From Pseudomonas solani (GTDB taxonomy: Bacteria; Pseudomonadota; Gammaproteobacteria; Pseudomonadales; Pseudomonadaceae), in assembly GCF_026072635.1 (NCBI RefSeq), contig NZ_AP023081.1, forward strand, positions 3,373,850 through 3,397,849: a stretch of DNA of 24,000 bases, given 5' to 3'. Positions 4,823 through 23,202 of this stretch are shown here, piece after piece. The notes under the pieces were generated by a model. That model saw only the letters and a program-made list of their open reading frames with translations, was not told the DNA's origin and did no database searches. Numbering within the stretch: position 1 is the first letter of the stretch; the number at the start of each line of letters is the position of its first letter. Both the position numbers and the translations under genes were made by a program.

Positions 4823-6202
4823 TCACAGCAGCCGTATCAGGGCCGTCAGTTCTTCTTCGGGTATCAGTTGCCTGTCGCGCAGGCCTTCCAGGCGGGCCTT
4901 GAGTGGCGCGGCAGACGCCCAGTATCTGTTCGGTCGCCAGCGCTGACGCCAGGACTGGAACGCCTGTAGCCAGAGCTCGCGCTGGTCTTCAGCAGCGTTG
5001 CACAGGCCGTCCAGCAGGCTTTCCGACTGAGCGCCGGAGGGCAGCATCAGGATGAGGTGCAGGCTGCCCGGTATGTCCTCCACGGCACGACGGGCGATCT
5101 CTGCCTGCAGTGCCGGCTCGAATGCCGGGTGGCGCAGGCGCTTCAAGGCCAGGAGTGCCGCCACGATCACGCCCGGTGCGGCGTCGTCCAGCAGGACGAG
5201 GCTCGCCTCGCTTGCGTGTTCAGGGGCGAGCTCCATCAGCACCTGCAGGCCCTTGCGGCGTACGGAGGGCAGTGGCGTGGCGAGCGCCTGGTGGGCCAGC
5301 GGAACGGATTCCTCCATGCGCAGCTCAGCGGCCTGACCGAGCACGCCGTGCCAGTGCGCCCTGTCCTCCGGCAACTGCTCCAGGGCACGTCGCACCACGG
5401 CCGGGGCGTCGACGCCGTGGCGAGGCGCAGCCCAGCGCGCCAGGTCGCGAACGGCGGGCGAGCTGTCCAGCAGGGCCGTTTCCAGCCAGCTGTGCAGTTC
5501 TGCTGCGTCGGGTTCACCCTTGAGCAGCGCATACAGGGCCTTGGCGCGCAGGCGGCCGCTGCGGTCCATCAAGGCTCGGCGCCAGAGCGGGCCGGCCAAT
5601 TCGGACGGCGCCTTGCCCAGCGCGTCCATGGCCTGGGTGCGCAGGGTTGGATCGGGGTGTGCCAGGGCGGTCCCGAGCAGTTCGGCGTCGAGGTTGCCCT
5701 CCGCCATCAAGGTGCTGAAGACGAAGCGTGCCTCCCGCCCGCTCAGGCCTGGCAGCGCCTGAAGCAAGGTCGGGCGCAGCGCGGGCTCTCGCAGGCGTTC
5801 CTGGATGCTGGCCAGGGCCACGCTGTGGTCGGCGCGCATCTTGCGCTGCAGGTCCAGCAGCAGGTCGAGGTTGGCCAGCAGGCTCTCGGCAGACGCTGCG
5901 ACCAGACGTTGTTCCAGGGCACCCCGTGCCAGCTCGCGCAGGCTCGCTACTGAATCGTTCAGGCAGACGAGGCAATAGGCCAAAGCGGATTCGTCGCCCC
6001 GTTCGAGGTGCCGGCGCAGCACGCCCTCGCGGATGAAACCGTTGTGCTGCCGGGGCAGCTCGCGGGCGCTGAGGGCGACGCCGTTGGCCAGGGCGGTTTC
6101 GGCTTCGTCCAGCCGGTATCGCAGCCAGTCGGTGTATTCGCCGGCAGCCTGTTTCACGCGTAGCTGGTCCCGCCAATGGGCGAGCCATTGCGTTGTGTTC
6201 AT
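4823..6202 (-). CDS. HEAT/PBS-lyase-like helical repeat protein, function unknown (459 aa), inside the rtc operon
   Basis: Strong AAGGAG SD 8 nt upstream of the ATG at 6202. Recurrent units of the type D-x-x-x-x-(V/L)R-x-x-A-x-x-AL: HPDPTLRTQAMDALGKAP, LMDRSGRLRAKALYALLKG, LLDSSPAVRDLARWAA, TPLPSVRRKGLQVLMELAP, LLDDAAPGVIVAALLALKRLRHP. Same strand as rtcA, 40 nt upstream of it. Confidence 0.75.
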   Translation of the reverse strand: MNTTQWLAHWRDQLRVKQAAGEYTDWLRYRLDEAETALANGVALSARELPRQHNGFIREGVLRRHLERGDESALAYCLVCLNDSVASLRELARGALEQRLVAASAESLLANLDLLLDLQRKMRADHSVALASIQERLREPALRPTLLQALPGLSGREARFVFSTLMAEGNLDAELLGTALAHPDPTLRTQAMDALGKAPSELAGPLWRRALMDRSGRLRAKALYALLKGEPDAAELHSWLETALLDSSPAVRDLARWAAPRHGVDAPAVVRRALEQLPEDRAHWHGVLGQAAELRMEESVPLAHQALATPLPSVRRKGLQVLMELAPEHASEASLVLLDDAAPGVIVAALLALKRLRHPAFEPALQAEIARRAVEDIPGSLHLILMLPSGAQSESLLDGLCNAAEDQRELWLQAFQSWRQRWRPNRYWASAAPLKARLEGLRDRQLIPEEELTALIRLL

Positions 6203-6250: not shown

Positions 6251-7156
6251 TTATGGCGTCGGGGCGGGTGTATTCAATAGCGGTGCCAGTGGCACGCTCT
6301 GTGGGCGCAGGGTCGCTGCGCAGTGGCCCAGGCGGGTGGTTTCCGCCTGGGCCTGGGAGGTGCTTTCCGCCACCTGCATCAGGGCGTAGCGGGTAGTGCC
6401 CGGGGTGCCGGTGTCGATGACCGCATAGGGCCCCAGGCACTCGGGCTGCCGGGTGCGTGAGGCATGGGCAGCGGTGATGCTGGCGTGGCGCTCGGCGATT
6501 ACCGCGAGCAGCGGCGCTGGCGGCGGAGTGGCGGCTTCGGCCAGGGCCGAGTGGTCGCCATTCCACTTCAGGTTGCGGGTTTCCAGGCGGTCTGGCGCGT
6601 TGTTCTCCGTGGCGTGGTAGCGCACCAGCAGCACCGGATTTTCACCGGTGGCGGCCAGCACCCAACTCTGGTTCGGCCCCGGGGCTTCGTCGTGGGACCA
6701 GGCCAGGCGCGGGCCCTGGGCCGTTGCCAGGTAGAGGGCGTGGCGGCGCTTGGGATGCTCGAAGCCTGCCATCTGGGTGACCAGCAGCGCCGGCTCGCCA
6801 TCCGCCAGCGGCAGCGGGCGTGCCGAAGCGCTGACCTGCCCTTCCTCCTCGCCGGTTATCCACACCCTTGGTTGGGCCGAAGCGCTCGCCAGGGGCGTAC
6901 TGGTGCCGTACAGGGGATCGGGCTCCGCTGGCTGGGCCGGTGCAGCCGTCGCCGACCAGGCCAGCGCCGCCGGGGCGCCCACCGGCTGGCCGCCACGCAA
7001 CAGGCGCAGCTCGAAGGGGCAGGGCGCCTGGGTGCAGGCGGGCAGCGACAGTTCGAAGGCCGTTGTAGCGTCCAGGGCGACGGTTTCCAGCCGCTGGCGC
7101 TCCTGGGCGGCCAGGCCGAGGAGCGCCGGCAGGGTGATAAGCAGTTTGAAGTCCAT
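6251..7156 (-). CDS. Hypothetical protein with signal-peptide-like N-terminus (301 aa), inside the rtc operon
   Basis: MDFKLLITLPALLGLAAQE (hydrophobic core plus an A-A-Q cleavage-like site). Natural-looking composition, unlike the R/G/A-rich opposite-strand ORF 6464..7333. GGGAG SD upstream. 29 nt downstream of the NTase gene. Confidence 0.65.
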   Translation of the reverse strand: MDFKLLITLPALLGLAAQERQRLETVALDATTAFELSLPACTQAPCPFELRLLRGGQPVGAPAALAWSATAAPAQPAEPDPLYGTSTPLASASAQPRVWITGEEEGQVSASARPLPLADGEPALLVTQMAGFEHPKRRHALYLATAQGPRLAWSHDEAPGPNQSWVLAATGENPVLLVRYHATENNAPDRLETRNLKWNGDHSALAEAATPPPAPLLAVIAERHASITAAHASRTRQPECLGPYAVIDTGTPGTTRYALMQVAESTSQAQAETTRLGHCAATLRPQSVPLAPLLNTPAPTP

Positions 7157-7185: not shown

Positions 7186-7983
7186 TCAGGCGGCGTGGGT
7201 CCGCACGCAGTGGCGCATGAATTCATCCAGCAGGGCGTCATCGCCCTCGCCCCGTGGCAGCTGTGGCGCTTCACCGGCGCTGGCCAGCTGGGTTTCGATG
7301 AAGGCGTGCAACACCTCGCGGCGAGGGCCGTAGGTGGCTTCGGTCCCCGCACGCTTGAGTTGCAGCAGCGCGTGTATTTCCTCCAGCAGTGCAGCGTCAT
7401 CCAGGGTCACCAGCAGGTCCTCGAAGGGCATCGGCGGGCGGCCGCGGCCTTGGTCGAGCCAGCGTACCGCCAGGAGCGGGCGCAGGACGTAGAGGTACTT
7501 CTTGAAACGCACGGTCTCGTCTTGCAGATAGCCCCGGAAGTTCTTCTTGGCCATGGACAGGTAGTGGTGACGCACGGCACGGGGCGACCAGAAGGCTTCG
7601 GCCAGTTCACGCAGGCGTGCGCTGGCGGCCTCGTCCTGGCGGTACACCAGAGGCGAGTCGAGCCATTCCAGCAGCGTGGGGTTGGAGTTGCGCAGCAGGC
7701 GCAGGGCCTTGCGCAGTTCCCAGCCGCTGACGTCCAGCTCGTCGTCCAGCGGGCGCTCGATCACGTCGCGCGGCTCACGCACCTGCAGGTACCAGTCGGG
7801 TTGCTCGACGTAGACGAAGCGCACGTCGTAGTCGCTGTCGCTGGAGGCGAAGCCCCAGGCGCGGCTGCCGGATTCGCAGGCGTAGAGCACGGTGACGTTG
7901 CGCTCGCGTTCGACCCGGTGCAGTTCCTCCAGCACCCGCTCGCGCATGGCGGCGGGGAGGGGATGGCGGTGGTCGCTGGTCAT
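7186..7983 (-). CDS. RlaP-type (RNA-ligase-associated) Pol-beta-fold nucleotidyltransferase (265 aa)
   Basis: Pol-beta NTase signature in LYACESGSRAWGFASSDSDYDVRFVY (G-S ... D-x-D), followed by the helical C-terminal region typical of the COG3541/PF10127 family that co-occurs with RtcB. AAAGGAAC SD. Confidence 0.85.
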   Translation of the reverse strand: MTSDHRHPLPAAMRERVLEELHRVERERNVTVLYACESGSRAWGFASSDSDYDVRFVYVEQPDWYLQVREPRDVIERPLDDELDVSGWELRKALRLLRNSNPTLLEWLDSPLVYRQDEAASARLRELAEAFWSPRAVRHHYLSMAKKNFRGYLQDETVRFKKYLYVLRPLLAVRWLDQGRGRPPMPFEDLLVTLDDAALLEEIHALLQLKRAGTEATYGPRREVLHAFIETQLASAGEAPQLPRGEGDDALLDEFMRHCVRTHAA

Positions 7984-8004: not shown

Positions 8005-8583
8005 TCAATCGGTGGCGCTGGCGGCCAGCGCGCTGAGTGTTCGTCGTCTCGGGTTGTACAGGGTGAGGCACCAGATGCCCCACCATTCCTTGCCGTCATC
8101 GAAGTAGCTGCTCCAGGCGCTGCGCTGGGGTTCGTCGTCGGCGTTGCCCACCCAGTCCAGCACCTGCAGCCCTTCGCCGGCATGCAGCCGCAGGACCTCG
8201 CGCCATTCGCGGAAATCCTCCACCTGCAGCGTGCTGCCATAGGGCGGGCCGACCAGGGCCCGGTACAGCGGCCCATCGTCCCGCGCCAGGTCCTCGATGC
8301 GCGCGGCATCCAGGGCCTGCGGGCGGGCCCGGTCCAGGTCGGGGATCAGCTCCGGCCAGGGTTTATTGGCGTACTGCGGGTGTTCTTCCAGCAGCTTGCG
8401 GCGCCATGCCTGGGAGCGTTCGCGAATGCCTTCGAACAGCACCCGCAGCGCATCCTTGTGCTCGGCCTCGCCGGGGCGGGCGGTGGCATCCAGGCCCAGC
8501 ACGACGAAGTCGAAGACGCTGCCGGCTTCGTCGAGGCGGGCCTGGAGCTCCGTCACCCGGCGGTTTTCCAGTTTCTGCAGCAT
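8005..8583 (-). CDS. Hypothetical protein (192 aa; alternative start at 8598 gives 197 aa), first gene after rtcB
   Basis: The ATG at 8583 has AAGGGG 6 nt upstream; the ATG at 8598 has no SD. Trp-rich C-terminal half (DFREWREVLRLH, VLDWVGN, GKEWWGIWCLTLYNP). I recognise no family. Confidence 0.7.
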   Translation of the reverse strand: MLQKLENRRVTELQARLDEAGSVFDFVVLGLDATARPGEAEHKDALRVLFEGIRERSQAWRRKLLEEHPQYANKPWPELIPDLDRARPQALDAARIEDLARDDGPLYRALVGPPYGSTLQVEDFREWREVLRLHAGEGLQVLDWVGNADDEPQRSAWSSYFDDGKEWWGIWCLTLYNPRRRTLSALAASATD

Positions 8584-8642
8584 GAGTCGCCCCTTCATGA
8601 ATGTTGAAAAACGTTGGCGAGGCAGTCAGCGCAGATAGCTTT

Positions 8643-9866
8643 TCAACCTTTTACGCACACCACCTGGCGCAGGGTATGCACCACTTCCACCAGCTCGCGC
8701 TGGGCATGCATCACGGCGTCGATATCCTTGTAGGCCATGGGGATTTCGTCGATCACGTCTTCGTCCTTGCGGCATTCCACATGGGCGGTGGCGCGGATCT
8801 GGTCTTCCACGGTGAACAGTTTCTTCGCCTTGGTACGGCTCATGGTGCGACCGGCACCGTGGCTGCAGGAGCAAAACGCCTCCTCGTTACCCAGGCCGCG
8901 CACGATGAAGCTGCGCGCGCCCATGGAGCCCGGGATGATCCCCAGCTGGCCCTTCTGCGCCGATACCGCACCTTTGCGGGTTACCAGGACCTCCTGGCCG
9001 AAGTGCTGCTCCTTCTGCACGTAGTTGTGGTGGCAGTTCACTGCCTCCAGGTTGGCCTCGAAGGGCTTGGTGATCACCTGGCGTGCTGCAGCGATCACGG
9101 CATGCATCATCATCGCTCGGTTCTGCTTGGCGAAGTCCTGGGCCCAGCTCACGGCTTCCACGTAGTCGTCGAAGTGCTCGCTGCCTTCTTCGAAGTAGGC
9201 CAGGTCGCGGTCCGGCAGGTTGGCGATGTGCTGGCGCATATCGGCCTGGGCCAGTTCGATGAACAGGTTGCCGATGGCGTTACCTACGCCGCGCGATCCG
9301 CTGTGGAGCATGAACCAGACGCGCTGTGCTTCGTCCAGGCAGACCTCGATGAAGTGGTTACCGGTTCCCAGGGTTCCCAGGTGCTTGCGGTTGTTGGTCT
9401 TCTCCAGGCGCGGGTACTTATCGGTGATCACCTTGAAGCGCCCGGCCAGGGCCGACCAGGCGTGGTCCGCCAGCTCCGGCACGTCTTCCCAGGCGCCTTT
9501 GTCTCGGCCACCGCGGGAAACGCTACGCCCGTGGGGCACGGCTCTTTCGATGGCGCTTCGCAGGCCGGCCAGGTTATCCGGCAGGTCGGAGGCGGTCAGC
9601 GAGGTGCGCGCGGCGATCATTCCGCAACCGATGTCCACGCCCACGGCGGCCGGGATGATGGCGCCGACGGTGGGGATCACGCTGCCGATGGTCGACCCCT
9701 TACCCAGGTGCACGTCCGGCATCACGGCCAGGTGCTTGAAGATGAAGGGCATCTGCGCGGTGTTCATCAGCTGCTTGCGCGCGTCGTCCTCCACCGGTAC
9801 GCCCTGGGTCCAGAGCTTGATCGGTTTGCCGTTGGCGACTTCCAGCAGGTTGTAGTGCTTTTCCAT
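8643..9866 (-). CDS. rtcB: RNA-splicing ligase RtcB (408 aa)
   Basis: MEKHYNLLEVANGKPIKLWT start with AAAGGAAC SD. Metal/GMP-site motifs PDVHLGKG, DIGCGM, HSGSRGVGN, CHHNY, PGSMG, SCSHGAGR. The six-frame ORF extends to 10064 only because the ncRNA region has no in-frame stop. Confidence 0.97.
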   Translation of the reverse strand: MEKHYNLLEVANGKPIKLWTQGVPVEDDARKQLMNTAQMPFIFKHLAVMPDVHLGKGSTIGSVIPTVGAIIPAAVGVDIGCGMIAARTSLTASDLPDNLAGLRSAIERAVPHGRSVSRGGRDKGAWEDVPELADHAWSALAGRFKVITDKYPRLEKTNNRKHLGTLGTGNHFIEVCLDEAQRVWFMLHSGSRGVGNAIGNLFIELAQADMRQHIANLPDRDLAYFEEGSEHFDDYVEAVSWAQDFAKQNRAMMMHAVIAAARQVITKPFEANLEAVNCHHNYVQKEQHFGQEVLVTRKGAVSAQKGQLGIIPGSMGARSFIVRGLGNEEAFCSCSHGAGRTMSRTKAKKLFTVEDQIRATAHVECRKDEDVIDEIPMAYKDIDAVMHAQRELVEVVHTLRQVVCVKG

Positions 9867-9891
9867 GTTCTCGTTCCTTTCAATTTCAAAA

Positions 9892-10008
9892 CGGCGACAA
9901 CTGAGGTGAAACGTGCATCGCGCTCTATCCGTTGAGCTACGGCCCCGAAGAGCCGGCGGGAGTCGAACCCGCAACCACGACGTCCTGTAGTTCCACCGGC
10001 ATTCGCCG
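9892..10008 (-). ncRNA. Y-RNA-like module 5 (YrlA-type, complete permuted tRNA-like domain)
   Basis: Minus-strand RNA, in order. Closing helix CGGCGA/UCGCCG. Conserved 5' AUGC. Helix GGUGGAAC/GUUUCACC (8 bp). Helix CGUCG/CGAUG. Variable-loop-like UGGUU. T-arm GCGGG-UUCGACU-CCCGC. Acceptor-like hairpin CGGCUC-UUCG-GGGCCG. D-arm GCUC-AACGGAUA-GAGC. Conserved 3' UUGUCG. Confidence 0.72.
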
Positions 10009-10040
10009 GGTCGATCCTTTGGCCATTCGATGGCCCTGGT

Positions 10041-10147
10041 GCAGCGACGAGGTGACGCGGACATGAGACTGCTCTACCCACTGAGCTACCCGTTGCCGGG
10101 GCGGGGTTCGAACCCGCGACCAATGTAATGTCCGCTGCATTCGCTGC
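10041..10147 (-). ncRNA. Y-RNA-like module 4 (YrlA-type, complete permuted tRNA-like domain)
   Basis: Closing helix GCAGCGA/UCGCUGC. AUGCA. Helix GCGGACAU/AUGUCCGC (8 bp). UGGUC. T-arm GCGGG-UUCGAAC-CCCGC. Acceptor-like CCCG-GCAA-CGGG (GNRA tetraloop). D-arm GCUC-AGUGGGUA-GAGC. Confidence 0.72.
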
Positions 10148-10176
10148 CGGCCCATGCGGGCCGTGGTGAAACAGGT

Positions 10177-10305
10177 GCGACGACAAAAGGTGGTGAAACG
10201 TTTTCGTGTTCTACCGTTGAACTACGGCCCCGCAGTATTGGAGCCGACGGGATTCGAACCCGCATCTCGACCGTGGAAGGGTGTAGTTCCACCGGCATTC
10301 GTCGC
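10177..10305 (-). ncRNA. Y-RNA-like module 3 (YrlA-type, complete permuted tRNA-like domain)
   Basis: Closing helix GCGACGA/UCGUCGC (7 bp). AUGCC. Helix GGUGGAAC/GUUUCACC. T-arm GCGGG-UUCGAAU-CCCGU. 7-bp acceptor-like stem CGGCUCC/GGGGCCG closed by AAUACUGC. D-arm GUUC-AACGGUA-GAAC. 3' CACCUUUUGUCG. Shares an identical 20-mer with module 5 (plus strand TGTAGTTCCACCGGCATTCG at 9986..10005 and 10282..10301). Confidence 0.72.
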
Positions 10306-10317
10306 AAAACTCAAGGT

Positions 10318-10405
10318 GGCACGACAATGGAAGGCGACTGTTCCGCGTTGCCGCGGGCCGGAATCGAACCGGCTCAACCGATGTACAGCCACCTGCATTC
10401 GTGCC
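10318..10405 (-). ncRNA. Y-RNA-like module 2 (T-arm and acceptor-like hairpin, no D-arm)
   Basis: Closing helix GGCACGA/UCGUGCC. AUGCA. Helix GGUGGC/GUCGCC (with G-U pairs). T-arm GCCGG-UUCGAUU-CCGGC. Acceptor-like CCGCG-GCAA-CGCGG (GNRA). Only AACA where the D-arm would be. 3' CAUUGUCG. Confidence 0.62.
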
Positions 10406-10413
10406 GCGCGCTA

Positions 10414-10467
10414 CGGTGACAAAGGTGTGCAGGGACATCGGTGATGTAGTCCCGGCTGCATTCGCCG
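10414..10467 (-). ncRNA. Y-RNA-like module 1 (short hairpin, YrlB-like, no tRNA-like domain)
   Basis: Closing helix CGGCGA/UCACCG (one C-A mismatch). AUGCA motif. Inner helices UGCA/UGCA and GGGAC/GUCCC. Same 3' motif CACCUUUGUC as modules 3 and 5. Confidence 0.5.
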
Positions 10468-10524
10468 TCTCGCGCTTCAACTCGTTGCGGGCCCCGCCCC
10501 ATTGCGGGGCCCTTCATCTTTTCG

Positions 10525-12075
10525 CTACAGCTCGGTCGCCTCGATCAGCTCGACCCAGTGCCGCGCGCCGTATTCGCCGCTGGCGAACTGGGCGACCACA
10601 TCGAATACCGCATCGCCGAAACCGCCGACGTTGAGGATGTCAGCCCTCTCCTGCGCCTGGGTGGTGCCGTAGGGCTGGATGTCGATGCAGACCATCTTCG
10701 CCTTCGGGTTCAGCCGCTTCAGCTGCTGCCACTGGAGCATGGTTTCGGTGGCGCCGCGACGCTTGGCGTCGATCCAGGATTCGTTGTCGGAAACCAGGAT
10801 CAGCGTATCCACCTTGGCCTTCTCCTTCACCAGCTGCGCCAGCGGTGCCGAGCAGTTGGTACCACCGCCGCCGATCGAGGCCAGCTTCTGCGCGTTGCTC
10901 ATCACGCTGTCACGCGGGTTGAGTCGCACGTTCACCACGTGGTTCTCGAACGGCATCACTCGCGCCATCGGCTGCTTGCGCAGTACCGCTGCGGCCATCA
11001 GCGCCGCCACGTCGATGCAGCGCACGGTGCTGGTGGCGCCCGGGCGGTAGCCGGTGGCCGGGCTCTGCATGGAGCCGGACACGTCCGGGCACACCACCAC
11101 GTTGCCCCGCAGCGCCGGCACATTGGCCAGCGACATTTCCAGCGCGTCCTGCAGCGCCTCGCGCACCGGCTCCGGTACTTCGCTGCCGGCCATCTTGTAG
11201 GCAGTCAGCAACTGGTACGGGTAGACCCGTGCCTTGGCCACCGCTTCCCGGTCCGCCAGCCGCGCGGCAACCGTGTAGGCCGCGCCGCGCAACTGGAACA
11301 CACCGTGGCGTGCCAGGGTGTTGAGGTTCATCCGCAGTGCCTGCCAGCCCATTCGCTGTGCCTGTACCAGCCACTGTTCAGCGCTCAGCTGACGGTCACC
11401 CAGCAATTGGAAGGGCACGTCCGGCAGCTCGTCGCTGGCGCCGCTGCGGTAAGCCAGCAGGGCGCGGGTCAGCGGCGGCAGCGCGTCGGCGTCCGCCGGC
11501 TTGCCGAGTACCCAGGCGAAGAAGGCTTCACGCCAGGCTTCGCTCGGTTTCGGGTGAACCATCTTCAGCACGTCCGCCAGGGACGGTTGGTTGCCGATCG
11601 CGGTTTGCAGCAGTTGTCGCTCGCTGGCGGTGTTCAGCCACTCCTGTACCAGTCGCTTGGGTTGTGAACCGAGCGATTTACGGCCGGTCACACCGCTGCG
11701 CAGGATCTGCACGACGTTGCGCAGCATCTTGCCGTTATCCACCACCTGGCCGAAAACTGCCGGCAGCAGGGAGGAGCGTTGCGCCGCCAGAGCGGCCACC
11801 AGCAGGGCCGGCATGTCCTTCATGTGGCCGGCACGACGGGCGTACACGGCGGTCTTGGCCACGAAGGCCGCGTCCAGTTGAGCCACCAGGGCCAGGACCT
11901 CGGCCAGTTGCTCGGGAGCGTCGGCGTAGAAGGTCTGGTTCAGGCAACCGGTCATCGCCAGTTGCGCCAGCTTGTGCTTCGGCTGCAGGGCGTAGGCGCC
12001 GGCCTGGCTGTGGTTCAGTGCATCCACCTGCGGCAGGCCTGCTGCCTGGGTGTTGAAGAGTGCGGTGTTGGCCAT
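10525..12075 (-). CDS. rsr: Rsr, bacterial Ro 60-kDa autoantigen orthologue (TROVE + vWA domains, 516 aa)
   Basis: TROVE-like N-terminal two-thirds (LNQTFYADAPEQL, AVYARRAGHMKDMPALLVAAL). C-terminal vWA with MIDAS motif VVVCPDVSGSM and a later LILVSDNESW strand. Context next to Y-RNA-like RNAs and rtcB matches the Salmonella rsr-yrlBA-rtcBA arrangement. Confidence 0.93.
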   Translation of the reverse strand: MANTALFNTQAAGLPQVDALNHSQAGAYALQPKHKLAQLAMTGCLNQTFYADAPEQLAEVLALVAQLDAAFVAKTAVYARRAGHMKDMPALLVAALAAQRSSLLPAVFGQVVDNGKMLRNVVQILRSGVTGRKSLGSQPKRLVQEWLNTASERQLLQTAIGNQPSLADVLKMVHPKPSEAWREAFFAWVLGKPADADALPPLTRALLAYRSGASDELPDVPFQLLGDRQLSAEQWLVQAQRMGWQALRMNLNTLARHGVFQLRGAAYTVAARLADREAVAKARVYPYQLLTAYKMAGSEVPEPVREALQDALEMSLANVPALRGNVVVCPDVSGSMQSPATGYRPGATSTVRCIDVAALMAAAVLRKQPMARVMPFENHVVNVRLNPRDSVMSNAQKLASIGGGGTNCSAPLAQLVKEKAKVDTLILVSDNESWIDAKRRGATETMLQWQQLKRLNPKAKMVCIDIQPYGTTQAQERADILNVGGFGDAVFDVVAQFASGEYGARHWVELIEATEL

Positions 12076-12116: not shown

Positions 12117-12133
12117 AGCGAGCGGCGTGCCAG
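12117..12133 (-). promoter_or_regulatory. Sigma-54 (-24/-12) promoter of the rsr-Y RNA-rtcB...rtcA operon
   Basis: Minus strand reads CTGGCACGCCGCTCGCTAT. TGGCACG-N4-TCGCT has the correct GG-N10-GC spacing against the consensus TGGCACG-N4-TTGCW. It lies 42-57 nt upstream of the rsr ATG and faces away from rtcR, which encodes a sigma-54 activator. Confidence 0.72.
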
Positions 12134-12317: not shown

Positions 12318-12926
12318 ATGCGCTTTTCACTTTTTCTCGTCTTCAGCCTGTTTGCCGGCCTGGCCCAGGCGGTGCCGCTGCCCGAGGTGCACGAGGGCGA
12401 CATCATCTTCCACCAATCGCGCTCGGCGCAGAGCCTGGCGGTGCAGCAGGCCACCCACTCGCGCTACAGCCACATGGGGCTGGTGCTGGCGCGCAACGGC
12501 ACGCTGCAGGTGTTCGAGGCGGGGGCGAAGGTGCAGTACGTGCCGCTGCAGCACTGGATCGCCCGGGGCGAGGGTGGGCACTACGTGATCAAGCGGCTGG
12601 CCCGTGCCGATGAGCTGCTGACCCCTGACGTGCTGGTGCAGATGCGCCAGTTGGCGGAGGGCATGCGCGGGCGTCGCTATGACCTGGCCTTCGAGTGGAA
12701 TGACCAGCGCCTGTATTGCTCGGAGCTGGTGTGGAAGCTCTACGAGCGCAGCCTCGGCCTGCGCCTGGGCGAGCTGCAGCGCATCCGCGATTTCGACCTG
12801 AGTTCGCCGGTGGTAAAGGCGAAGATGCGCGAGCGCTACGGCCAGGCCATCCCGCTGGACGAGACCGTGGTATCGCCGGTGGCGATCTTCGAGTCGCCCC
12901 TGCTGATCACCGTGGCGCAGCACTGA
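12318..12926 (+). CDS. YiiX-family permuted papain-fold (NlpC/P60 superfamily) protein with signal peptide (202 aa; alternative ATG at 12312)
   Basis: MRFSLFLVFSLFAGLAQA signal peptide. GDIIFHQS...SHMGLV and the later RYDLAFEWNDQRLYCSELVWKLY (Cys after His, i.e. permuted order) fit the YiiX/DUF830-type pattern. AAGGA lies 7 nt upstream of 12318. Confidence 0.8.
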   Translation: MRFSLFLVFSLFAGLAQAVPLPEVHEGDIIFHQSRSAQSLAVQQATHSRYSHMGLVLARNGTLQVFEAGAKVQYVPLQHWIARGEGGHYVIKRLARADELLTPDVLVQMRQLAEGMRGRRYDLAFEWNDQRLYCSELVWKLYERSLGLRLGELQRIRDFDLSSPVVKAKMRERYGQAIPLDETVVSPVAIFESPLLITVAQH

Positions 12927-12928
12927 GC

Positions 12929-14533
12929 ATGGCGCGCAAGACCGTCGCCATCGGCTTTATCGGCGCCACCCTGGACCGCATGGGCAAGGGCGCCGAGCGC
13001 TGGAACAAGTGGCGCCCCAGCGTCGGCCTGTGCCAGCAGCCGGATCTGCTGCTGGACCGCCTGGAGCTGATCCACGGCAGCGATGCCCGCGACCTAGGGC
13101 TGGCCCAGCGCATCAAGGGCGATGTGGAGCAGGTGTCGCCGCAGACCGAGGTGGTGCTGCACGAGATGCCGCTGCACAACCCCTGGGACTTCGAGGAGGT
13201 GTATGCGGCGCTGCACGACTTCGCCAGTGCCTACCGCTTCGATACCGAGCGCGAGGACTACCTGGTGCACATCACCACCGGGACCCACGTAGCGCAGATC
13301 TGCTGGTTCCTGCTCACCGAGGCGCGTTACCTGCCGGCGCGCCTGGTGCAGACCTCGCCGGCCCGCCGCCGCGACGAGGATCGCCACGCCATCGGTACCC
13401 ACTCGCTGATCGACCTCGACCTGTCGCGCTACGACCATATCGCCTCGCGCTTTCAGCGCGAGATGCTGGAGAGCCTGGCGCTGCTGAAGTCCGGCATCGC
13501 CACGCGCAACGCGGCGTTCAACCGCAGCATCGAGCAGATCGAGCGGGTGGCGCTGCGTTCCCGCGCGCCCATGCTGCTGGTGGGGCCGACCGGGGCGGGC
13601 AAGTCGTTCCTGGCGCGGCGCATCTTCGAGCTGAAGGATGCGCGCCACCAGATCAAGGGCCGCTTCGTCGAGGTGAACTGCGCGACCCTGCGCGGCGACG
13701 GCGCGATGTCGGCGCTGTTCGGCCATATCAAGGGCGCCTTCACCGGCGCGCAGAACGCCCGCGATGGCCTGCTGCGCGCGGCGGACGGCGGCATGCTGTT
13801 CCTCGACGAGATCGGCGAGCTGGGCCTCGACGAGCAGGCCATGTTGCTCAAGGCCATCGAGGAGAAGCGCTTCTTCCCCATGGGCTCGGACCGTGAGGTG
13901 GAAAGCGATTTCCTGCTGATCGCCGGCACCCACCGCGACCTGCGCACGCGGGTGACCGAGGGGCTGTTCCGCGAAGACCTCTATGCCCGTATCAACCTCT
14001 GGACCTTCGAACTGCCGGGCCTGGCCGGGCGCCGCGAGGACATCGAGCCGAACATCGATTTCGAACTGGAACGCCACGCCCGCGAGCAGGGGCGCATGGT
14101 GCGCTTCAACGTCGAGGCGCGGCGCCGCTACCTGGCCTTCGCCTGTTCGGGGGAAGCGCGCTGGGCGGGCAACTTCCGCGAGCTGTCGGCCTCGATCACG
14201 CGCATGGCGACCCTGGCCGACAGCGGCCGCATCGACGAGGTGTTGGTGCAGGAGGAGATCGACCGCCTGCGCTACGCCTGGGGCGCCCAGGGGCAGGCGG
14301 ATGATGGCCTGGCGGCGCTGCTCGGCGAGCGGGTGGTGGAGCTGGACCGCTTCGACCGCCTGCAGCTGGCGGCGGTGGTCGCGGTGTGCCGCGAGGCGAG
14401 CAGCCTGTCCGAGGCGGGGCGGCTGCTCTATGACGTCTCGCGCCAGGCCAAGGCGCAGCCCAATGATGCCGACCGGCTGCGCAAGTACCTGGCGCGGTTC
14501 GGCCTGGAGTGGAAGGACCTGGCCGCCGGGTAG
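12929..14533 (+). CDS. rtcR: RtcR, sigma-54-dependent transcriptional activator with N-terminal CARF-type sensor domain (534 aa)
   Basis: MARKTVAIGFIGATLDRMGKG...WRPSV N-terminus typical of RtcR. AAA+ core with Walker A GPTGAGKS, sigma-54 contact loop GAFTGA, Walker B LFLDEIGEL. The ATG lies 2 nt after the yiiX-like stop. The upstream part of ORF 12716..14533 overlaps the yiiX-like CDS and is rejected. Confidence 0.95.
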   Translation: MARKTVAIGFIGATLDRMGKGAERWNKWRPSVGLCQQPDLLLDRLELIHGSDARDLGLAQRIKGDVEQVSPQTEVVLHEMPLHNPWDFEEVYAALHDFASAYRFDTEREDYLVHITTGTHVAQICWFLLTEARYLPARLVQTSPARRRDEDRHAIGTHSLIDLDLSRYDHIASRFQREMLESLALLKSGIATRNAAFNRSIEQIERVALRSRAPMLLVGPTGAGKSFLARRIFELKDARHQIKGRFVEVNCATLRGDGAMSALFGHIKGAFTGAQNARDGLLRAADGGMLFLDEIGELGLDEQAMLLKAIEEKRFFPMGSDREVESDFLLIAGTHRDLRTRVTEGLFREDLYARINLWTFELPGLAGRREDIEPNIDFELERHAREQGRMVRFNVEARRRYLAFACSGEARWAGNFRELSASITRMATLADSGRIDEVLVQEEIDRLRYAWGAQGQADDGLAALLGERVVELDRFDRLQLAAVVAVCREASSLSEAGRLLYDVSRQAKAQPNDADRLRKYLARFGLEWKDLAAG

Positions 14534-23063: not shown

Positions 23064-23202
23064 GCCTTCTCGGGGTGATTGCCGGGCGCGTCGTCCCTGA
23101 CGGCCCGGGAACCGGTGGAGGCGCCTTTGCCTCCGCTCGCACGGCTGGTGCCCCGGGGCACCAACCATGCGGATGACGCGTCCTGCGTCATCTGAACCCC
23201 TC

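What the first reader, a model, noticed from the sequence alone, without database searches (positions are those of the whole stretch)
9892..10405. Circularly permuted tRNA mimics with tetraloop-capped acceptor stems, in a graded series
Four modules contain textbook T-arms (GCGGG-UUCGAAU/UUCGAAC/UUCGACU-CCCGY and GCCGG-UUCGAUU-CCGGC), and three contain textbook D-arms (GCUC-AGUGGGUA-GAGC, GCUC-AACGGAUA-GAGC, GUUC-AACGGUA-GAAC). The order is T-arm, then acceptor, then D-arm, which is permuted relative to a tRNA. The acceptor stem is a closed hairpin capped by GCAA (modules 2 and 4), UUCG (module 5) or an 8-nt loop (module 3). There is therefore no free CCA end, and the anticodon arm is replaced by the Y-RNA helices. 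GNRA and UNCG caps on three of four stems argue strongly for a selected RNA fold rather than decayed tRNA genes. The modules form a series: no tRNA-like part (module 1), T-arm plus acceptor only (module 2), complete (modules 3 to 5). tRNA-like domains are described for YrlA. The graded multi-copy set is what looks unusual.
Basis: partly seen in the sequence, partly recalled or inferred. Interest (0 to 1): 0.8.

Follow-up and report, generated by a model that had tools for sequence, protein, structure and literature searches.

The report
Five tandem Y RNAs, three tRNA-like
The region holds five tandem Ro60-binding Y RNA genes inside an RNA-repair operon, three of them the already described YrlA type that mimics a rearranged tRNA; this five-gene layout is real, selected and shared by many Pseudomonas relatives, so it is mostly known biology.

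Summary
Between rsr (Ro60 ortholog) and rtcB lie five modules. Each has the Ro-binding stem (CGAAUGC...UUGUC).

- **M1:** hairpin only.
- **M2:** T-arm plus a GCAA-capped hairpin.
- **M3 to M5:** T-arm, closed acceptor hairpin, U8-A9, D-arm.

Rfam YrlA scores M5 and M4 above its gathering score, M3 just below it and M2 far below. ARAGORN finds no tRNA natively but calls all three full modules tRNAs after in-silico re-permutation.

Comparison with 80 related rsr loci shows strong helix covariation in every class. The tertiary 15-48 pair covaries (G-C or A-U in 87 of 92 modules). GNRA caps dominate the tetraloops.

[quoted passage not shown] The graded five-module array is not peculiar to this window. 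About 20 species share the same ordered classes, other loci hold 1 to 7 modules, and modules group by position rather than by species.

One addition may be new. The M3 class has a 7-bp acceptor with G3.U70 and A73, the alanine and tmRNA identity set, closed by an 8-nt loop.

Verdict: new member of a known kind, modest interest.

The parts
12716..14533 (+). rtcR, a sigma54-dependent activator. This is the maximal ORF; the true start is probably downstream.
   Evidence: Pfam RtcR (3.7e-84) and Sigma54_activat (9e-49)
12118..12132 (-). Sigma54-type promoter-like site TGGCACGCCGCTCGC, 43 nt upstream of the rsr ATG
   Evidence: A TGGCAC-N5-YNGC site lies within 200 nt upstream of rsr in 61 of 66 related loci.
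10525..12075 (-). rsr, the Ro60 ortholog (516 aa)
   Evidence: Pfam vWA_Ro60 (6e-21) and TROVE (4e-10). It is 95% identical to the Metapseudomonas otitidis protein.
10489..10512 (-). G+C-rich hairpin just after the rsr stop codon. It has no U-tract on the minus strand.
   Evidence: Near-identical in L001 (one stem base differs, a G-C to G-U change).
10406..10476 (-). Module M1: a minimal hairpin-type Y RNA with a Ro-type stem, CGAAUGC...UUUGUC, and no tRNA-like part
   Evidence: Fold of -27 kcal/mol, z = -2.5. The orthologous class in 45 loci is 92% paired, with 12 pairs changed on both sides.
10315..10405 (-). Module M2: Ro stem, T-arm (10373..10357) and a GCAA-capped hairpin (10356..10343). 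It has no D-arm.
   Evidence: Rfam YrlA 34.5 bits, E = 1.4e-5, below the gathering score. MFE z = -4.1. The class alignment A5 is 94% paired with 10 covarying pairs.
10174..10305 (-). Module M3: a full YrlA-type module. T-arm 10263..10247, 7-bp acceptor hairpin with 8-nt loop 10246..10225, UA, D-arm 10222..10208.
   Evidence: Rfam YrlA 64.9 bits against a gathering score of 69. The permuted form is called a tRNA. G3.U70 and A73 register.
10148..10163 (-). Spacer hairpin GGCCCG-CAUG-GGCCG between M3 and M4
   Evidence: A hairpin is predicted at the same place in 6 of the 7 related loci compared (absent in L016, whose M3-M4 spacer is only 8 nt), with different stem sequences.
10038..10147 (-). 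Module M4: a full YrlA. T-arm 10117..10101, 4-bp acceptor hairpin with GCAA 10100..10089, UA, D-arm 10086..10071.
   Evidence: Rfam YrlA 75.7 bits, above the gathering score
10019..10035 (-). Spacer hairpin GGCCAU-CGA-AUGGCC between M4 and M5
9888..10009 (-). Module M5: a full YrlA. T-arm 9972..9956, 6-bp acceptor hairpin with UUCG 9955..9940, UA, D-arm 9937..9922.
   Evidence: Rfam YrlA 82.2 bits. The MFE reproduces all three arms. The permuted form, with its native 5-bp anticodon-stem analogue and 5-nt variable region, is called a tRNA.
8643..9866 (-). rtcB RNA ligase. Its ATG at 9866 is 21 nt after M5.
   Evidence: Pfam RtcB 4e-133
7186..7983 (-). rlaP (PF10127 nucleotidyltransferase), further downstream in the same operon
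   Evidence: Pfam RlaP 3.5e-99

Best explanation
The 600-nt gap between rsr and rtcB encodes an array of five Y RNAs, the noncoding partners of the Ro60 ortholog Rsr.

Shown here:
- Each module has the family's basal stem, with CGAAUGC on the 5' strand and UUGUC on the 3' strand.
- The distal ends differ by class. M1 is a plain hairpin. M2 has a T-arm plus a GNRA-capped hairpin. M3 to M5 have the complete YrlA tRNA-like domain: variable region, T-arm, closed acceptor hairpin, U8-A9, D-arm, with the Y RNA helix standing in for the anticodon stem.
- Every class is conserved by position across species with compensatory changes. The G15-C48 / A15-U48 tertiary pair covaries, as expected for an L-shaped fold.

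- The array is transcribed from the RtcR/sigma54 promoter as part of the rsr...rtcB...rlaP message when damaged tRNA fragments activate RtcR.
- It is then cut into separate 60 to 130-nt RNAs.
- Each RNA binds the Rsr ring through its basal stem.
- The distal domain acts as a tether or gate that brings Rsr to a partner: PNPase, or a tRNA-binding protein that recognises the T/D elbow.
- The three kinds of distal domain probably give Rsr different partners rather than simple dosage.
For: - Rfam YrlA hits: M5 82.2 and M4 75.7 bits (gathering score 69), M3 64.9, M2 34.5.
- Gene context: rtcR, sigma54 site, rsr, array, rtcB, rlaP.
- No sigma70-like promoter and no minus-strand terminator inside the array.
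- ARAGORN finds 0 tRNAs natively. It calls a tRNA after re-permutation for M3, M4 and M5, none for M2, and 0 of 300 shuffles.
- A covariance model built from M3 to M5 finds 278 hits. All but two weak ones inside rsr (19.4 bits, E 0.18, in L053 and L054) lie downstream of rsr on its strand, in 80 loci.
- In the 150 best hits, 93% of cells are paired and 32 of 36 pairs change on both sides, against 37 to 51% paired when partners are slid.
- The M2 and M1 classes were tested on plain MAFFT alignments: 94% and 92% paired, 0 of 500 shuffles reach the covariation score.
- The 15-48 pair is G-C in 54 and A-U in 33 of 92 modules.
- Modules are 81% identical within a class across species, and 66% between classes within a species.
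- Literature: YrlA architecture and its modification by TruB and DusA (PMC4201824); crystal structure of the L-shape (10.1101/312249); operon induction by tRNA fragments (PMC7790460).
Against: - No expression, processing or Rsr-binding data exist for this organism.
- M3, M2 and M1 fall below Rfam's YrlA gathering score.
- The MFE folds of M3 and M4 alone do not reproduce the canonical D-arm.
- The GNCGAA motif of Chen et al. lacks its first G in M4 (AGCGAA) and M2 (CACGAA).
- The function of YrlA's tRNA-like domain is unknown even in Salmonella, so the tether or effector step is analogy.
- The 150-hit alignment was fitted to the model, which inflates pair counts.
Confidence: 0.88

Rival explanations
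1. The modules are decayed or rearranged tRNA genes, remnants of a tRNA cluster with no function of their own.
For: - The T-arm and D-arm sequences are tRNA-like.
- Weak Rfam matches to tmRNA and other tRNA-like models.
- A tRNA-dimer origin has been proposed for YrlA (10.1101/312249).
Against: - All five carry the Ro-binding stem.
- The same ordered classes persist from Metapseudomonas to P. fluorescens-type genomes and Betaproteobacteria, with compensatory changes in every helix and in the 15-48 tertiary pair.
- They always sit downstream of rsr on its strand.
- GNRA caps are conserved.
Confidence: 0.02
2. The array is a cis-acting structured spacer of the operon mRNA. It would control processing, stability or rsr-to-rtcB expression, and would not give rise to stable trans-acting RNAs.
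For: - It has no promoter or terminator of its own.
- Conserved small hairpins lie between modules, and U-runs follow M2 and M3 in several loci.
- M5 ends 21 nt before the rtcB ATG.
Against: - The homologous Salmonella RNAs, in the same rsr-yrlBA-rtcBA position, are stable, Rsr-bound and modified like tRNA (PMC4201824).
- M. smegmatis YrlA and YrlB are cut from one precursor (PMC4201824).
- Conservation of tertiary tRNA contacts is not needed for a spacer.
Confidence: 0.05
3. All five are Y RNAs but functionally redundant. The copies would only raise dosage, and M1 and M2 would be degenerating copies, so the graded series has no meaning.
For: - The Ro-binding stem and the UACA motif are shared by all five.
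- The number of modules varies from 1 to 7 among loci.
- The M2 T-loop drifts from UUCGAUU to UUAAGU or UAUGUU in P. fluorescens-type genomes, and some lineages lost the second hairpin.
Against: - Classes are kept apart for long periods: 81% identity within a class across species against 66% between classes in one genome. There is no sign of concerted evolution.
- Class-specific traits are stable. M4 has a 4 to 5-bp stem with GCAA and G15-C48 in 16 of 16. M3 has a 7 to 8-bp stem with a large loop and a GUUC/GAAC D stem.
- M1 and M2 show compensatory changes, not decay.
Confidence: 0.12

Closest known systems
[quoted passage not shown] 2014, PMC4201824; Wang et al. 2018, 10.1101/312249)
   Same: - The Ro-binding stem with CGAA(U)G.
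- The order variable region, T-arm, closed acceptor stem-loop, D-arm.
- The near-invariant T stem GCGGG/CCCGC and D stem GCUC/GAGC.
- U8-A14, G18G19 and the T-loop, and 15-48 contacts possible.
- Position next to rsr and rtcB under RtcR.
- Acceptor length varies between members, as published.
   Different: - There are three full copies in tandem rather than one.
- M3 scores just below the Rfam threshold and has a GUUC/GAAC D stem, a 7-bp acceptor with G3.U70 and A73, and an extra 13-nt insertion upstream of the T-arm.
- No experimental data exist for this genus.
YrlB-type and Yrn2-type Y RNAs (S. Typhimurium YrlB, RF02565; M. smegmatis YrlB; D. radiodurans Yrn2)
   Same: They are second, smaller Y RNAs encoded beside YrlA and cut from one precursor. 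[quoted passage not shown]
   Different: There is no sequence homology to Salmonella YrlB. Rfam YrlB gives 22.5 bits against a gathering score of 97. M2 adds a conserved GNRA-capped second hairpin. Both grades sit in one array together with three YrlAs.
Permuted (two-piece) tmRNA precursors and circularly permuted pre-tRNAs
   Same: The T-arm is followed directly by the acceptor 3' strand, then a loop, then the acceptor 5' strand. M3 has the GGGG...CUCC-A acceptor with G3.U70, as in tmRNA and tRNA-Ala. Sub-threshold Rfam hits to tmRNA_permuted (26.1 bits) and cyano_tmRNA (22.9 bits) fall on exactly this part.
   Different: There is no mRNA-like reading frame, no pseudoknots and no encoded CCA. 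Nothing shows that the loop is excised. The scores are far below the gathering scores of 47 and 70.

Membership tests
YrlA (RF02553) | Scores at or above the Rfam gathering score (69 bits) | tested here: met
   M5 scores 82.2 and M4 scores 75.7 bits, so both pass. M3 scores 64.9 and M2 34.5, so both fail. M1 has no hit. By this criterion only M4 and M5 are members.
YrlA (RF02553) | Encoded within 4 kb of the Ro60 ortholog on the same strand (criterion of Chen et al. 2014) | tested here: met
   All five modules lie 50 to 640 nt downstream of the rsr stop codon on the minus strand.
YrlA (RF02553) | GNCGAAN0-1G motif in the 5' strand of the basal stem | tested here: inconclusive
   M5 (GGCGAAUG), M3 (GACGAAUG) and M1 (GGCGAAUG) match. 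M4 (AGCGAAUG) and M2 (CACGAAUG) lack the first G. CGAAUGC is invariant in all five.
YrlA (RF02553) | T stem-loop, closed acceptor-like stem-loop and D stem-loop, in that order | tested here: met
   M3, M4 and M5 meet it and are supported by covariation. M2 lacks the D-arm, and M1 lacks all three.
YrlA (RF02553) | Nucleotides for tRNA tertiary contacts: U8-A14, G18/G19 with the T-loop, R15-Y48 | tested here: met
   UA comes before the D stem, A14 is the first D-loop base, GG is in the D-loop, and the T-loop is UUCGANN. The 15-48 pair is A-U in M5 and M3 and G-C in M4. Across relatives it is G-C in 54 and A-U in 33 of 92.
YrlA (RF02553) | Bound by Rsr and modified by TruB and DusA | not testable with these tools
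   This needs immunoprecipitation and modification mapping.
YrlB (RF02565) | Scores at or above the Rfam gathering score (97 bits) | tested here: not met
   The best hit is 22.5 bits, E = 0.094, over M2. M1 and M2 work like YrlB-type RNAs but are not members of that Salmonella-specific family.
tRNA gene | Detected as a tRNA with 5' and 3' acceptor ends and an anticodon arm | tested here: not met
   ARAGORN finds 0 genes in the window and none in the Y RNA arrays of the 60 related loci scanned; the only tRNAs there lie elsewhere (tRNA-Pro far upstream of rsr in L036, L039 and L042, and a doubtful call far downstream in L058). Modules are detected only after artificial re-permutation.
tmRNA / permuted tmRNA | Scores at or above the Rfam gathering score; has a tag reading frame | tested here: not met
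   26.1 bits against a gathering score of 47, covering only the T-arm and acceptor of M3. ARAGORN finds no tmRNA.

The most novel reading that the evidence does not exclude
The M3 class is more than a closed tRNA mimic. Its acceptor hairpin is 7 bp, the length that makes M. smegmatis YrlA an RNase P substrate. It carries G1-C72, G2-C71, G3.U70, G4-C69 and A at the discriminator place, which is the alanine identity set of tRNA-Ala and tmRNA. The hairpin is closed by an 8-nt loop.

M3 could be opened by RNase P, trimmed, given CCA and charged, or at least bound, by AlaRS. That would yield a two-piece, Rsr-bound tRNA-like RNA comparable to two-piece tmRNA, made inside an operon that also encodes an RNA ligase (RtcB) and a 3'-end nucleotidyltransferase (RlaP).
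Probability: 0.1. Interest if true: 0.75.

Novelty: new member of a known kind. Interest (0 to 1): 0.3.

Why it matters
Bacterial Y RNAs are still poorly understood. The partner of the YrlA tRNA-like domain is unknown, and only three species have been studied experimentally.

A genetically tractable group such as Pseudomonas and its relatives carries five positionally conserved Y RNAs with three kinds of distal domain. That offers a natural dissection series: Ro stem alone, plus T-arm, plus the full tRNA elbow. It could be used to find what the elbow binds and why an RNA-repair operon needs it.

The alanine-type acceptor of the M3 class gives one concrete, cheap biochemical test. Otherwise the finding confirms published biology and does not overturn anything.

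Tried and rejected
- **Plus-strand and ORF reading.** The long ORFs over the array (8643..10064, 9767..10186, 10211..10480) are artefacts of high G+C. The region is fully explained by RNA modules.
- **First regex scans.** My Ro-stem scans failed through an indexing error and were redone. The corrected scan still gives about 1 false hit per 9 kb on control strands, so its counts are approximate.
- **First T-arm parser.** It picked a false GUCGAGA loop in M3. It was fixed by requiring stem pairing.
- **ARAGORN test specificity.** The test is less specific than it looks. With only the D-arm shuffled, 146 of 200 constructs are still called tRNA; with only the T-arm shuffled, 11 of 200; with both shuffled, 0 of 200. 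The M3 and M4 constructs needed an artificial anticodon stem.
- **MFE folding.** Folding M3 and M4 alone did not give the canonical D-arm.
- **Literature gaps.** Supplemental Tables S1 and S2 of Chen 2014 list the YrlA copies per genome but are not held. Burroughs and Aravind 2016 is not held. I therefore cannot exclude that Pseudomonas multi-copy loci were already tabulated.
- **Neighbouring ORFs.** NCBIfam and Pfam gave nothing for the 197-aa and 301-aa ORFs downstream of rtcB.
- **tRNA-Ala comparison.** No tRNA-Ala gene was present in the fetched loci to compare with M3.

Full report
**What is there**

The feature lies on the minus strand. Reading 5' to 3' on that strand, the locus holds:
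- rtcR, divergent (12716..14533, plus strand; Pfam RtcR and Sigma54_activat).
- A sigma54-type site, TGGCACGCCGCTCGC (12132..12118).
- rsr (12075..10525; TROVE and vWA_Ro60).
- A G+C-rich hairpin (10512..10489).
- Five RNA modules.
- rtcB (ATG at 9866; Pfam RtcB 4e-133).
- A 197-aa ORF without family hits.
- rlaP (PF10127).

This is the RNA-repair operon type described for Salmonella as rsr-yrlBA-rtcBA (PMC7790460). The closest Rsr in the genome collection is from Metapseudomonas otitidis DSM 17224 (95% amino-acid identity). Its array is 94% identical in DNA.

| Module | Window (minus strand) | Content |
|---|---|---|
| M5 | 10009..9888 | T-arm GCGGG-UUCGACU-CCCGC; hairpin CGGCUC-UUCG-GGGCCG; UA; D-arm GCUC-AACGGAUA-GAGC |
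| M4 | 10147..10038 | T-arm GCGGG-UUCGAAC-CCCGC; hairpin CCCG-GCAA-CGGG; UA; D-arm GCUC-AGUGGGUA-GAGC |
| M3 | 10305..10174 | T-arm GCGGG-UUCGAAU-CCCGU; hairpin CGGCUCC-AAUACUGC-GGGGCCG; UA; D-arm GUUC-AACGGUA-GAAC |
| M2 | 10405..10315 | T-arm GCCGG-UUCGAUU-CCGGC; hairpin CCGCG-GCAA-CGCGG; no D-arm |
| M1 | about 10476..10406 | Long stem with a 12-nt loop; no tRNA-like part |

All five share CGAAUGC on the 5' side, UUGUC on the 3' side and an invariant UACA after the second helix. The motif counts are far above chance: 4 T-arm motifs against 0.22 expected per 24 kb, and 3 D-arm motifs against 0.04 expected.

**What it is**

Rfam's YrlA model matches all four tRNA-like modules end to end. M5 scores 82.2 bits and M4 75.7, both above the gathering score of 69. 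M3 scores 64.9 and M2 34.5.

MFE folds reproduce the T-arm and the capped hairpin in M2 to M5, and the D-arm in M5. In a fold of the whole 646-nt spacer, M1 to M4 still fold as separate units.

- ARAGORN finds nothing in the native sequence.
- It calls a tRNA for each of M3, M4 and M5 once the acceptor loop is cut and the Y RNA helix is closed with a 7-nt loop.
- For M5 the native helix already supplies a 5-bp anticodon-stem analogue, a G26/U44 position and a 5-nt variable region.
- Controls: 0 of 300 shuffles are called, M2 is not called, and 0 of 200 are called when both arms are shuffled. ARAGORN tolerates a shuffled D-arm (146 of 200), so the test mainly reports the T-arm and acceptor geometry.

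**Comparative evidence**

I fetched 80 loci encoding Rsr relatives. I built a covariance model from M3 to M5 and searched all loci with it.

All but two of the 278 hits lie just downstream of rsr on its strand; the two exceptions are weak hits inside rsr (19.4 bits, E 0.18, in L053 and L054). Loci hold 1 to 7 hits, most often 3 to 5. A separate scan for Ro-type stems gives the same picture.

The window's series of module lengths is 56, 88, 129, 107 and 119 nt. It recurs in the same order in about 20 species of Metapseudomonas, Ectopseudomonas and Pseudomonas. P. fluorescens-type genomes keep M1, M2 and one full module. A Rhodocyclaceae MAG (L048) has seven modules.

Modules are more alike within a class across species (81%) than between classes in one genome (66%). 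The classes are therefore old paralogs kept apart, not recent duplicates.

Covariation is strong in every class:

| Alignment | Cells paired | Pairs changed on both sides | Control |
|---|---|---|---|
| 150 best hits (fitted to the model) | 93% | 32 of 36 | 37 to 51% paired when partners are slid |
| M2 class, plain MAFFT | 94% | 10 | 0 of 500 shuffles reach the covariation score |
| M1 class, plain MAFFT | 92% | 12 | 0 of 500 shuffles reach the covariation score |

Other comparative points:
- The D stem is GCUC/GAGC in 73 modules and GUUC/GAAC in 16, a double compensatory change.
- The base at position 15 of the D-loop and the base before the T stem (position 48) form G-C in 54 and A-U in 33 of 92 distinct modules, with 5 exceptions. 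This is the Levitt pair of tRNA, and it argues for the L-shaped fold.
- Of the 92 acceptor hairpins, 47 have tetraloops. Of those, 35 are GNRA (31 are GCAA) and only 2 are UNCG.
- Class traits are stable. M4 has a 4 to 5-bp stem with GCAA. M3 has a 7 to 8-bp stem with a large loop.
- In M2, which has no D-loop partner, the T-loop drifts in some lineages (UUAAGU, UAUGUU) and the second hairpin is lost in others.

**How it probably works**

- **Shown here:** the sequence, fold potential, conservation and gene context.
- **Inferred from Salmonella, M. smegmatis and D. radiodurans** (PMC4201824, PMC7790460, 10.1101/312249): the array is co-transcribed from the RtcR/sigma54 promoter. No sigma70-like promoter or minus-strand terminator was found in the array, and a sigma54-type site lies upstream of rsr in 61 of 66 loci.
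- **Also inferred:** the transcript is processed into single RNAs. Each is bound by the Rsr ring at the basal stem, and its distal domain acts as a tether or gate.
- Conserved small hairpins between M3/M4 and M4/M5, and U-runs after M2 and M3 in several species, may mark processing or 3'-end protection sites. This is speculation.

**Comparison with the literature**

The T, closed acceptor, D order is the published definition of YrlA. The papers also cover the missing CCA end, the variable acceptor length and the Y RNA helix standing in for the anticodon stem. [quoted passage not shown] They showed P. fulva YrlA. They also described hairpin-type partners and an M. smegmatis YrlB that has a T-arm only.

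Every grade of the series thus has a precedent. I did not find a description of the conserved five-class array, but the supplementary tables that might list it are not held.

**One thing that may be new**

In tRNA numbering the M3 acceptor hairpin reads G1-C72, G2-C71, G3.U70, G4-C69, C5-G68, C6-G67 and G7-C66, then A at position 73. By textbook knowledge this is the alanine identity set shared by tRNA-Ala and tmRNA.

- It is kept in all 11 distinct Meta- and Ectopseudomonas orthologs, while pairs 4-69 and 5-68 vary.
- Related forms occur in an Andreprevotia locus and a Rhodocyclaceae locus.
- It is not kept in P. fluorescens-type genomes, where the 3-70 pair is C-G.
- It explains the sub-threshold Rfam hits of this stretch to permuted tmRNA models.

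A 7-bp acceptor is the feature Chen et al. gave as the most likely reason that M. smegmatis YrlA is cleaved by RNase P and then receives CCA. M3 could therefore be opened and charged, or be bound by AlaRS. That remains open, and I rate it unlikely but testable.

**Verdict**

The kind is already known. This is a well-preserved multi-copy member of the bacterial Y RNA and YrlA family, and the multi-copy layout is common among its relatives. Interest is modest.

Noticed in passing
window 10225-10246 (-), within M3; orthologs in L002-L016, L048, L052: The acceptor hairpin of the M3 class carries G1-C72, G2-C71, G3.U70, G4-C69 and A73, the alanine and tmRNA identity set. The stem is 7 bp with an 8-nt loop. 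The set is kept in 11 Meta- and Ectopseudomonas species but not in P. fluorescens-type genomes.
   Followed up: partly
window 23073-23197 (-): Rfam RsmW (RF02809) match at 72.4 bits against a gathering score of 52. This is an Rsm-family sRNA unrelated to the finding, and it is consistent with a Pseudomonas-group genome.
   Followed up: no
window 10148-10163 and 10019-10035 (-); same places in L001, L005, L008, L010, L020, L038: Small G+C-rich hairpins sit in the spacers between M3/M4 and M4/M5. Their position is conserved while the stem sequences differ between species. U-runs follow M2 and M3 in several species. They may be processing or 3'-end protection signals.
   Followed up: partly
window 10489-10512: A 9-bp all-G-C hairpin lies right after the rsr stop codon. 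It looks like a terminator only on the plus strand (T-run on that side), although no gene converges there. It is near-identical in M. otitidis (one stem base differs, a G-C to G-U change).
   Followed up: no
all five modules, e.g. window 9986-9989, 10122-10125, 10280-10283, 10380-10383, 10443-10446 (-): An invariant UACA follows the second helix in every module, including M1, which has no tRNA-like part. M2, M3 and M4 all end in CACC after the basal stem. Neither motif appeared in the passages of the three Y RNA papers that I read.
   Followed up: no
L048 5734-6703; L070 5605-6314; L044 5597-6023: Array composition varies widely in other lineages. A Rhodocyclaceae MAG has seven modules. Chitinimonas lacunae has five short (65 to 68 nt) hairpin-type modules and no full YrlA hit. 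P. ovata has four short modules and one full module.
   Followed up: no
L007, L011, L012, L014, L015, L018, L021, L025-L028 and others (M2 class): In P. fluorescens-type genomes the M2 T-loop is no longer T-loop-like (UUAAGU, CUAACC, UAUGUU), although the stem is kept. In another group the GNRA hairpin is deleted (79-nt form).
   Followed up: partly
window 8005-8598 (-), 6251-7156 (-), 4823-6202 (-): Three ORFs downstream of rtcB have no informative family match: 197 aa and 301 aa with no Pfam or NCBIfam hit, and 459 aa with weak HEAT repeats. No RtcA cyclase was seen among the ORFs tested, unlike the rtcB-rlaP-rtcA order reported for P. fluorescens and P. aeruginosa (PMC12776372).
   Followed up: partly
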